DNA of 16,684 bases, taken from the IMG/VR virus record IMGVR_UViG_2526164618_000010; one strand, written 5' to 3'. Numbering within the stretch: position 1 is the first letter of the stretch; each line of letters starts with the position of its first letter. Origin of the DNA: a virus. Its lineage: Duplodnaviria > Heunggongvirae > Uroviricota > Caudoviricetes. Under the pieces are notes generated by a model that was not told the DNA's origin, did not search any database, and saw only the letters and a list, made by a program, of their open reading frames with translations. Shown in pieces: positions 5,431 through 5,941 of this stretch. A program made the position numbers and the translations under genes.

Positions 5431-5482
5431 TAAACAACAAAAAACCCGCCGAAACGCTGAGAGATCACAGCGATGGGCGGGT
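5431..5482 (-). terminator. intrinsic terminator on the minus strand, downstream of hok
   Basis: Minus-strand hairpin CCCGCC…(inner stem CGCTG/CAGCG)…GGCGGG at 5445-5481 followed by TTTTTTGTTGTTTA (complement of 5431-5444). Confidence 0.5.
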
Positions 5483-5558
5483 TAAGTGCGGGTGCGTTGA
5501 GGATGCCTGACACATCAGAGGTGGGCGGGGATGGGATCAGCTCCCCACCCGGTCACTC

Positions 5559-5714
5559 TTACTTCCTGGATTCGTAGTCTACGAAGACAGCGACCTCCGT
5601 CTGGCCGGTTCGGATTCGTACCTCACAGAGGTCTTTCCTCGTTACCAGTGCCGTCACTATGACGGTTAAACAGATGACGATCAGGGCGATTAACATCGCC
5701 TTTTGCTGCTTCAT
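5559..5714 (-). CDS. hok: Hok/Gef-family type I toxin (HokD/RelF-like, 51 aa)
   Basis: MKQQKAMLIALIVICLTVIVTALVTRKDLCEVRIRTGQTEVAVFVDYESRK has the single transmembrane helix and conserved C-terminal Hok motif. Start ATG at 5712-5714. Confidence 0.85.
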   Translation of the reverse strand: MKQQKAMLIALIVICLTVIVTALVTRKDLCEVRIRTGQTEVAVFVDYESRK

Positions 5715-5771
5715 AGCCTGCTTCTCCTTGCCTTTCGGCATGTAAGAGGCTAACCTACATGTGCAAAGCAT
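5559..5771 (-). CDS. mok: mok-like leader ORF, in-frame N-terminal extension of hok
   Basis: The 70-aa ORF MLCTCRLASYMPKGKEKQA-MKQQK… shares frame and stop with hok. This is the arrangement recalled for K-12 mok/hok pairs; not independently verified. Confidence 0.55.
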   Translation of the reverse strand: MLCTCRLASYMPKGKEKQAMKQQKAMLIALIVICLTVIVTALVTRKDLCEVRIRTGQTEVAVFVDYESRK

Positions 5772-5941
5772 GAAATTGGCCTCAGATTAATGTTAAGCGT
5801 CTTGCCGGACGCGTAATGTTAACTGGGGCTTTTCTCTATCTGCCTTTTGGTGTTCATGCCTGAAGCAGATAGCCTCAAGCACCCGCAGTCATTCTACTTA
5901 CCTCGCCAATATGAAATCAATCAGAAAGGTGCCCCATAAAA

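What the first reader, a model, noticed from the sequence alone, without database searches (positions are those of the whole stretch)
5431..5940. hok/mok type I toxin locus with its own terminator and a structured leader, directly downstream of the QueH-like gene
The 51-aa Hok is HokD/RelF-like and is embedded in-frame in a 70-codon mok-like ORF. A long hairpin plus U-run terminator (5431-5482, minus strand) closes the transcript. An 8-bp inverted repeat with a 21-nt spacer (CTATCTGC at 5836-5843, GCAGATAG at 5865-5872) lies in the leader/promoter region. A sok-type antisense RNA would be expected on the plus strand around 5745-5830, but I could not place its promoter or terminator confidently. 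No relB/relE-like genes accompany it, unlike the K-12 Qin arrangement I remember.
Basis: partly seen in the sequence, partly recalled or inferred. Interest (0 to 1): 0.4.

Follow-up and report, generated by a model that had tools for sequence, protein, structure and literature searches.

The report
Intact prophage hok/mok/sok toxin-antitoxin locus

Summary
On the minus strand, 5920-5436 holds a complete hok/mok/sok type I toxin-antitoxin cassette.

- **Toxin genes:** Hok is 51 aa (5714-5559; Pfam HOK_GEF, E 1e-22). It lies in frame inside a 70-codon mok ORF that starts at 5771.
- **Leader:** It matches Rfam RF01794 at 117 bits (E 1e-26).
- **Long-range pairing:** The 5' tac element (5884-5873) pairs with a 3' fbi element (5502-5488) in the minimum-energy fold (-187.7 kcal/mol, z -8.3).
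- **Terminator:** A hairpin (5483-5443) is followed by a U run.
On the plus strand, the promoter is TTGCCT (5728-5733), 17 nt, TAACCT (5751-5756). The start is about 5763, the hairpin is 5778-5831, and the U run reaches about 5836.
It is a covarying helix inside the transcribed leader, not a promoter element.

The locus is 92% identical in DNA to hokW/mokW/sokW of phage 933W/Sp5, and Hok matches HokW at 50 of 51 residues. That system has been shown to work as a toxin-antitoxin pair. Identical sequence is already annotated "hokD" next to QueH. Unlike K-12 hokD, it keeps leader, mok and sok, and no relBE is present.

Already known; low interest.

The parts
5891..5920 (-). Candidate hok/mok promoter: -35 TTGATT (5920-5915), 18-nt spacer, -10 TAGAAT (5896-5891). 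It puts the transcript start near 5884.
   Evidence: Consensus scan, 9 of 12 matches. The -10 and the start region are shared with 933W hokW. The Rfam model begins at 5884.
5873..5884 (-). tac element, the 5' end of the hok mRNA (GGGUGCUUGAGG). It pairs with fbi in the full-length RNA.
   Evidence: The MFE fold pairs 5884-5873 with 5490-5502. The same complementarity occurs in 37 of 41 family loci, with compensatory U:A to C:G and G:C to A:U changes.
5836..5872 (-). Its 5' arm can instead join tac in a metastable 5' hairpin (5882-5872 with 5866-5856).
   Evidence: In one search, helix 2 has 98.8% of cells paired and two pairs with changes on both sides.
5778..5830 (-). ucb (anti-SD, GCCCCAG) to mok Shine-Dalgarno hairpin. 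The mok SD (GAGG, 5783-5780) is sequestered in the full-length fold. The same DNA read on the other strand forms the Sok hairpin.
   Evidence: MFE fold. RNAalifold helix 3 has 4 covarying pairs.
5559..5771 (-). mok reading frame, 70 codons, in frame with hok and containing it.
   Evidence: ORF list. Homologous to the annotated mokW of 933W.
5559..5714 (-). hok toxin gene, 51 aa (MKQQKAMLIALIVICLTVIVTALVTRKDLCEVRIRTGQTEVAVFVDYESRK). The SD AAGGAG is at 5729-5724.
   Evidence: Pfam PF01848, E 1e-22. 50 of 51 residues match HokW. 90% identical to K-12 HokD.
5728..5756 (+). Sok promoter: -35 TTGCCT (5728-5733), 17-nt spacer, -10 TAACCT (5751-5756). It overlaps the hok SD on the other strand.
   Evidence: Positionally homologous to the R1 sok promoter (my recollection of R1). 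The primers used to make the 'promoter-less' sokW change exactly this hexamer (PMC8621323).
5763..5836 (+). Sok antisense RNA, about 71-74 nt: a 15-nt single-stranded 5' tail covering the mok start codon, a long hairpin (5778-5831), then UUUUCUC.
   Evidence: Mapped from the sokW feature of AF125520. Fold is -30.2 kcal/mol, z -5.0.
5519..5547 (-). 3' UTR stem-loop. It would end the processed, translatable mRNA and protect it from 3' exonucleases.
   Evidence: MFE fold. Conserved helix 12 has 3 covarying pairs. The role is inferred from R1 (PMC9841398).
5488..5502 (-). fbi (fold-back inhibition) element, CCUCAACGCACCCGC.
5436..5483 (-). Intrinsic terminator of the hok mRNA. It has the same ACCCGC/GCGGGU stem as in K-12 and E. 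coli O18 hokD, where the loop is UUCG, but carries a 23-nt insertion in the loop.

Best explanation
Window 5436-5920 is a complete hok/mok/sok type I toxin-antitoxin cassette of the hokW/hokD subfamily. It lies in a defective lambdoid (Rac/Qin-like) prophage, between a QueH gene and an IS911 copy.

The mechanism is inferred from the R1 paradigm and from hokW-sokW, and every required sequence element is present.

1. A promoter at 5920-5891 makes a roughly 445-nt mRNA starting near 5884.
2. While the RNA is being made, its 5' end (tac) is held in a metastable hairpin.
3. In the finished RNA, tac pairs with fbi at the 3' end. The mok Shine-Dalgarno is sequestered by the upstream anti-SD box (ucb). 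The RNA is therefore neither translated nor bound by Sok.
4. Slow 3' trimming removes fbi. The leader then refolds and mok becomes translatable. Translation of mok carries ribosomes into the in-frame hok.
5. The short, unstable Sok RNA (plus strand, about 5763-5836) pairs with the mok start region of this processed RNA. That blocks translation and triggers decay of the duplex.
6. If Sok supply stops, Hok is made. It is a 51-aa inner-membrane peptide that damages the membrane.

Shown here: presence, integrity, predicted folds and covariation of all elements. Inferred: the transcripts, the processing, toxicity, and the physiological role. The role could be prophage retention, or help with lysis on induction as reported for hokW-sokW.
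For: - **Protein and RNA family matches:** Pfam HOK_GEF E 1e-22. Rfam RF01794 117 bits, E 1.4e-26, over the whole leader.
- **Closest characterised relative:** About 92% DNA identity over some 425 nt to 933W/VT2-Sakai, where hokW, mokW and sokW are annotated. Hok matches HokW at 50 of 51 residues.
- **Full-length fold:** MFE -187.7 kcal/mol, z -8.3. It pairs 5884-5873 with 5502-5490 and pairs the mok SD with ucb.
- **tac/fbi across the family:** Complementarity at a constant distance in 37 of 41 related loci, with compensatory changes.
- **Consensus fold of 20 diverse loci:** It recovers tac/fbi, the leader hairpin, ucb/SD-mok, the hok-SD hairpin, a long-range coding helix and the 3' stem-loop. 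95.3% of cells are paired against 38-47% when partners are slid. 21 pairs have changes on both sides. 0 of 500 shuffles reach the observed percentage paired, number of pairs or cells changed on both sides, or covariation score.
- **Sok:** The -10 TAACCT is identical to the hexamer mutated to silence sokW. The Sok hairpin plus U run has z -5.0.
- **Experiments on the relative:** HokW toxicity and sokW antitoxin activity were shown experimentally (PMC8621323).
- **Mechanism elements:** As summarised for R1 in PMC9841398.
- **Existing annotation:** The identical locus is annotated hokD next to QueH.
Against: - No expression data exist for this copy.
- Chromosomal hok loci tested so far did not give post-segregational killing (cited in bioRxiv 10.1101/2025.08.07.668861).
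- Energy-only folding of the 3'-trimmed RNA gives the metastable hairpin, not the tac/ucb 'open' stem. The refolding step therefore rests on the Rfam consensus structure and on R1 experiments.
- The Sok -10 (TAACCT) is a weak consensus match, and the promoter scan did not call it.
- NCBIfam Hok models score below their cut-offs, 55 bits against 73.
- The host prophage is heavily decayed, so the physiological role reported for hokW (aiding phage release) may not apply.
Confidence: 0.93

Rival explanations
1. The cassette is structurally intact but functionally silent: a passenger relic of a dead prophage. Like the K-12 chromosomal hok loci, it would neither kill nor stabilise anything.
For: - The surrounding prophage is riddled with IS elements and truncated genes.
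- Literature cited reports that the chromosomal hokA, hokB and hokC loci gave no post-segregational killing.
- notes that most K-12 hok loci are inactivated.
Against: - Unlike K-12 hokD, nothing is missing here.
- The IS911 lies 95 nt beyond the terminator and does not touch the transcript.
- Every regulatory helix is preserved in this copy.
- The near-identical hokW-sokW is active.
Confidence: 0.25
2. The inverted repeat at 5836-5872 is a DNA-level operator or promoter element for a regulator, as the reader's 'leader/promoter' wording allowed, rather than an RNA helix.
For: It lies only 20-50 bp downstream of the predicted -10, a position where operators can sit.
Against: - It falls inside the Rfam-modelled RNA as a consensus helix.
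- It keeps pairing through compensatory changes, A:U to U:A in 5 of 20 loci. That is the signature of RNA structure, not of a protein-binding palindrome.
Confidence: 0.03
3. The main role of this copy is phage-related rather than maintenance. It would either be abortive-infection defence against superinfecting phages, or assist lysis on induction, as proposed for hokW-sokW.
For: - hokW-sokW doubled Sp5 release after mitomycin C.
- R1 hok/sok reduced T4 plating (cited).
Against: - The lysis module next to this copy is truncated: Rz is cut by IS911. Assistance to phage release is therefore unlikely here.
- No enrichment of hok near defence systems was found.
Confidence: 0.2

Closest known systems
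hokW/mokW/sokW of Stx phages 933W and Sp5 (VT2-Sakai), AF125520 / AP000422
   Same: - About 92% DNA identity from the -10 of the hok promoter through fbi.
- Hok matches at 50 of 51 residues (E50 in HokW, R50 here).
- mok is in frame with hok.
- The Sok -10, the Sok hairpin, tac and fbi are identical.
- hokW-sokW is experimentally a type I TA pair (PMC8621323).
   Different: - The context differs: a QueH gene lies upstream here, and different genes flank the locus in 933W.
- 933W has no terminator hairpin after fbi, and a gene starts about 50 nt downstream instead.
- The 3' UTR stem-loop here carries a 5-nt longer loop.
hokD (relF) of the E. coli K-12 Qin prophage
   Same: - Hok protein 90% identical.
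- The coding region, 3' UTR, fbi and terminator stem are homologous.
- PGAP names the identical protein HokD.
   Different: - K-12 hokD shares sequence only from the hok Shine-Dalgarno onward.
- tac, ucb, the mok start and the whole sok gene are replaced there by the end of relE.
- Here they are all present, and relBE is absent.
hok/mok/sok (parB) of plasmid R1
   Same: The architecture and regulatory elements are the same: the 5' GGNGCUUGAGGC tac, fbi, ucb, the mok SD, the Sok promoter position overlapping the hok SD, and the 3' stem-loop and terminator. The mechanism is as summarised in PMC9841398.
   Different: - HokW, which matches this Hok at 50 of 51 residues, is only about 44% identical to R1 Hok (figure given for HokW in PMC8621323).
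- mok is in frame with hok here, whereas I recall R1 mok being in another frame.
- The location is a prophage, not a plasmid.
QueH-hokD module of lambdoid prophages in E. coli (for example strain O18, NZ_CP007275)
   Same: - The gene order is the same: DUF977, a small ORF, QueH, hok.
- 91% DNA identity.
- Present with at least 80% coverage in 729 of 5,426 complete E. coli genomes.
   Different: - The terminator loop is UUCG there and a 27-nt loop here.
- The Hok C-terminus is TAYEPEE there and VDYESRK here.
- The downstream nin/Q genes are replaced here by IS911 and a rearrangement.

Membership tests
[quoted passage not shown] | Hok/Gef-type toxin: a single-pass membrane peptide of about 50 aa | tested here: met
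   PF01848 HOK_GEF at 79.9 bits against a cut-off of 22, E 9.8e-23. NCBIfam Hok subfamily models hit below their cut-offs.
[quoted passage not shown] | Overlapping upstream mok reading frame with its own Shine-Dalgarno, through which hok is translated | tested here: met
   The 70-codon ORF 5771-5559 contains hok in frame. GAGG lies 8 nt upstream of its ATG. It is homologous to the annotated mokW. Translational coupling itself was not tested.
[quoted passage not shown] | cis-encoded Sok antisense RNA gene opposite the mok translation start, with its own promoter and terminator | tested here: met
   TTGCCT-17-TAACCT at 5728-5756 (+), followed by a hairpin and U run at 5778-5836. It is co-linear with the annotated sokW, and the -10 equals the one mutated in PMC8621323. 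The transcript was not observed.
[quoted passage not shown] | Long-range tac (5' end) to fbi (3' end) pairing that closes the full-length mRNA | tested here: met
   A 12-bp pairing appears in the MFE fold. It is found in 37 of 41 family loci with compensatory changes and is recovered by RNAalifold.
[quoted passage not shown] | Sequestration of the mok SD by an upstream anti-SD box (ucb), and a metastable 5' hairpin | tested here: met
   Helix 3 (ucb/SD-mok) has 4 covarying pairs. The metastable hairpin is predicted for the 5' 53 nt at -17.2 kcal/mol, z -2.2.
[quoted passage not shown] | 3' processing to a translatable truncated mRNA, and RNase III decay of the hok-Sok duplex | not testable with these tools
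   This needs northern blots or RACE. The MFE of trimmed RNAs did not by itself give the open tac/ucb stem.
[quoted passage not shown] | Toxicity of Hok and neutralisation by Sok | not testable with these tools
   Shown for HokW/sokW, which matches at 50 of 51 residues (PMC8621323). Not shown for this copy.
K-12-type hokD (relF) arrangement | hok directly downstream of relB-relE, with no mok/sok leader | tested here: not met
   The leader, mok and sok are present here. K-12 homology begins only at the hok SD. There is no RelB/RelE hit in the window.
hokW-sokW of Stx phages | Near-identity of toxin, mok, Sok and the leader | tested here: met
   About 92% DNA identity over the locus and 50 of 51 residues. 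The flanks and the terminator differ.

The most novel reading that the evidence does not exclude
This copy may be a regulatory variant rather than a plain ortholog. It has a 23-nt insertion in the terminator loop and an enlarged 3' UTR stem-loop. Both could change the rate of 3' trimming, and so the delay before Hok is made. The R50 codon change weakens the small stem around the conserved UACG (TadA editing) site at Tyr47, which could alter Tyr-to-Cys recoding and toxicity. Such a tuned cassette could be what keeps this IS-riddled prophage remnant from being lost in a Shigella-like genome.
Probability: 0.1. Interest if true: 0.3.

Novelty: already known. Interest (0 to 1): 0.08.

Why it matters
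It matters little beyond annotation. The result shows that this genome carries a full hok/mok/sok cassette, not the truncated K-12 hokD form. Automated annotation labels only a "hokD" CDS and omits mok and the Sok RNA.

It also flags that the Rfam family named "sok" actually models the hok-sense leader. The strand of such hits should therefore not be read as the strand of the antitoxin.

For anyone deleting or cloning this prophage region, the cassette is a potential source of toxicity.

Tried and rejected
- **Terminator scan:** The simple promoter/terminator scan found no terminator. Its loop limit is 8 nt, and direct folding shows the hairpin.
- **"Terminator unique to this locus":** I first thought this because megablast matches stop at 5477. 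I rejected it. Alignment shows the same stem as in K-12 and O18 hokD, with a 23-nt loop insertion. Only 933W truly lacks it.
- **Folding 3'-trimmed mRNAs:** I hoped to see the open tac/ucb conformation. The MFE gave the metastable 5' hairpin instead, so this step is not supported by energy minimisation alone.
- **Shuffle control for the tac/fbi duplex:** It is weak because the 3' UTR is G+C-rich. The shuffled mean was -14.9 and the best shuffle -20.1, against -21.5 observed. Positional conservation and covariation are the stronger evidence.
- **R1 fbi:** My automatic duplex search picked a wrong site for the R1-type locus. The true fbi (CUGAAGCGCC) was placed by eye.
- **NCBIfam:** It gave only sub-threshold Hok hits.
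- **relBE search:** The result was negative.
- **Not run, because unnecessary for a known family:** protein database searches, structure prediction and metagenome scans.

Full report
**1. What is in the sequence**

Read on the minus strand, 5920 to 5436 holds all parts of a hok-type cassette.

- The ORF list gives a 70-aa frame at 5771-5559. Its last 51 codons, from the ATG at 5714, are MKQQKAMLIALIVICLTVIVTALVTRKDLCEVRIRTGQTEVAVFVDYESRK.
- Pfam places it in HOK_GEF (E 9.8e-23, 79.9 bits, cut-off 22). The upstream gene at 6628-5942 is QueH (E 2.6e-65).
- A scan of the window against Rfam finds RF01794 ("sok") over 5884-5709 at 117 bits, E 1.4e-26. That model starts with the hok mRNA 5' end and ends at the hok AUG. 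It therefore describes the hok-sense leader, and its strand is not the strand of the antisense RNA.

**2.

- **Inverted repeat:** It is exactly where stated, at 5836-5843 and 5865-5872 with a 21-nt spacer. It lies at +13 to +49 of the RNA, not in the promoter.
- **Promoter:** A promoter-like TTGATT-18-TAGAAT sits at 5920-5891. That puts the start near 5884, where the Rfam model and the homology with 933W begin.
- **Terminator:** It is real. The stem is 5483-5476 with 5450-5443, and an inner hairpin sits in a 27-nt loop. A U run follows. Energy is -22.8 kcal/mol, z -5.4.
- **relB/relE:** Neither is encoded anywhere in the window.

**3. Placing Sok**

- In 933W (AF125520), sokW is annotated opposite the mokW start. 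Transferred through the alignment, this gives a plus-strand RNA from about 5763 to about 5833.
- Upstream on that strand are TTGCCT (5728-5733), 17 nt, then TAACCT (5751-5756). This matches the position of the R1 sok promoter as I recall it, overlapping the hok Shine-Dalgarno.
- The primers used by Takada et al. to make a promoter-less sokW change exactly the hexamer complementary to AGGTTA (PMC8621323).
- The predicted RNA has a 15-nt free 5' tail covering the mok AUG. A long hairpin (5778-5831) and UUUUCUC follow. Energy is -30.2 kcal/mol, z -5.0.

**4. The hok mRNA fold**

- The 446-nt RNA from 5884 to 5439 folds to -187.7 kcal/mol, against -136.5 ± 6.2 for shuffles (z -8.3).
- In that fold the first 12 nt (tac, 5884-5873) pair with 5502-5490 (fbi), with one bulge.
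- The mok Shine-Dalgarno (GAGG, 5783-5780) pairs with the upstream GCCCCAG box (ucb).
- The hok SD is in a small hairpin.
- A stem-loop at 5547-5519 precedes fbi.
- The isolated 5' end forms the expected metastable hairpin.

These are the elements described for R1 hok (PMC9841398).

**5. Comparative support**

- A scan of one genome per species returned 47 loci from Escherichia, Shigella, Kluyvera, Citrobacter, Photorhabdus, Pantoea, Erwinia and others.
- In 37 of 41 loci with a recognisable 5' end, a site complementary to tac lies 340-382 nt downstream. Compensatory changes are seen: GGGU...ACCC to GGGC...GCCC, and GAGG...CCUC to GAGA...UCUC.
- An alignment of 20 diverse loci, including an R1-type plasmid copy, was folded with RNAalifold. 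It independently recovers tac/fbi, the leader hairpin, ucb/SD-mok, the hok-SD hairpin, a long-range helix within the coding region and the 3' stem-loop.
- On that structure 95.3% of cells are paired, against 38-47% when partners are slid by 1-3 columns. 21 pairs show changes on both sides, against 2-11 when slid. No shuffle out of 500 reaches the observed percentage paired, number of pairs or cells changed on both sides, or covariation score.

**6. What it is closest to**

- **Stx phages:** Megablast against phage records gives about 92% identity over some 425 nt to 933W, VT2-Sakai and other Stx phages, where hokW, mokW and sokW are annotated. HokW differs from this Hok only at residue 50. hokW-sokW has been shown to be a working type I pair. 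Its antitoxin activity partly depends on RNase III and Hfq, and it is activated on prophage induction (PMC8621323).
- **E. coli genomes:** 4,713 of 5,426 complete genomes hold a match, and 729 hold the QueH-hok arrangement at 80% or more coverage. Two genomes (FDAARGOS_943 and 944) are 99.8% identical across the whole query, and there the CDS is annotated hokD. A Shigella flexneri genome encodes the identical protein.
- **K-12 hokD:** It is homologous only from the hok SD onward. Its leader, mok start and sok are replaced by relE. This agrees with the literature statement that it lacks TA components.

This copy is therefore the complete form, not the K-12 form.

**7. Local peculiarities**

- The terminator stem (ACCCGC/GCGGGU) is the one found in K-12 and O18 hokD. 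There the loop is UUCG; here a 23-nt insertion makes a 27-nt loop with its own 5-bp helix. 933W has no such terminator.
- The 3' UTR stem-loop has a longer loop than in 933W.
- An IS911 copy occupies 4099-5348, beginning 95 nt past the terminator stem (5443), so the hok transcript is untouched.

**8. Verdict**

The finding is correct and the locus is a known kind of system, essentially an ortholog of hokW-sokW. The mechanism given is inferred from R1 and hokW. What is shown here is that every sequence element that mechanism needs is present, intact and evolutionarily constrained.

Expression, processing and toxicity of this copy are untested. So is its biological role inside a decayed prophage. 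Interest is low.

Noticed in passing
window 4099-5348 (-), junctions at 5348/5349 and 4098/4099: This is an IS911 copy, 98.8% identical to annotated IS911 and 1 bp shorter, which alters the OrfA C-terminus. It has no 3-bp target duplication (CCC on one side, TTT on the other). Its far side abuts a truncated Rz lysis gene (3855-4103, +), not the sequence that follows the empty site in FDAARGOS_943. This points to an IS-mediated inversion or deletion that removed the nin/Q genes downstream of hok.
   Followed up: partly
window 5391-5418 (-): A second promoter-like site, TTGATT-16-TAGAAT, lies just past the hok terminator. In related genomes a 96-aa ORF follows it (L002 9652-9939). Here that gene is gone, cut off by IS911.
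   Followed up: partly
window 5573-5576 (-), Tyr47 codon of hok: The Tyr47 codon is UAC followed by G, which is the TadA editing motif UACG. TACGAA is invariant in all 20 aligned hok loci. Tyr-to-Cys mRNA editing at this position is reported for hokC, hokD and hokE (PMC12214031). The R50 codon change here weakens the small flanking stem that 933W has (read by eye, not computed).
   Followed up: partly
window 12984-13172 (+): Rfam hits to isrK (61.5 bits) and to C4 antisense RNA (75.7 bits) lie side by side. They fall at the start of, or inside, an overlong ORF encoding Ash and Rha domains (12825-13781). This looks like a P1/P7-type antisense immunity module in this prophage.
   Followed up: no
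window 7627-8373 (-): The ydaV-like (IstB-type ATPase) replication gene is split into two ORFs of 117 and 113 aa. It is an intact 248-aa gene in FDAARGOS_943, so this is probably a pseudogene.
   Followed up: no
window 953-3870, 11157-12430, 14295-16093: The window holds further mobile-element debris: an IS66-family element (TnpB and a transposase split in two), an IS3-family transposase fragment, two more IS3-family elements, and an exonuclease VIII (RecE) fragment. It is an IS-riddled Rac/Qin-like prophage remnant typical of Shigella-like genomes.
   Followed up: partly
window 5709-5884 (-), Rfam RF01794: The Rfam family named 'sok antitoxin' is built in the sense of the hok mRNA leader: it begins at the hok 5' end and ends at the hok AUG. 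Its hits therefore fall on the toxin strand. Annotating them as the antitoxin RNA would put Sok on the wrong strand.
   Followed up: yes
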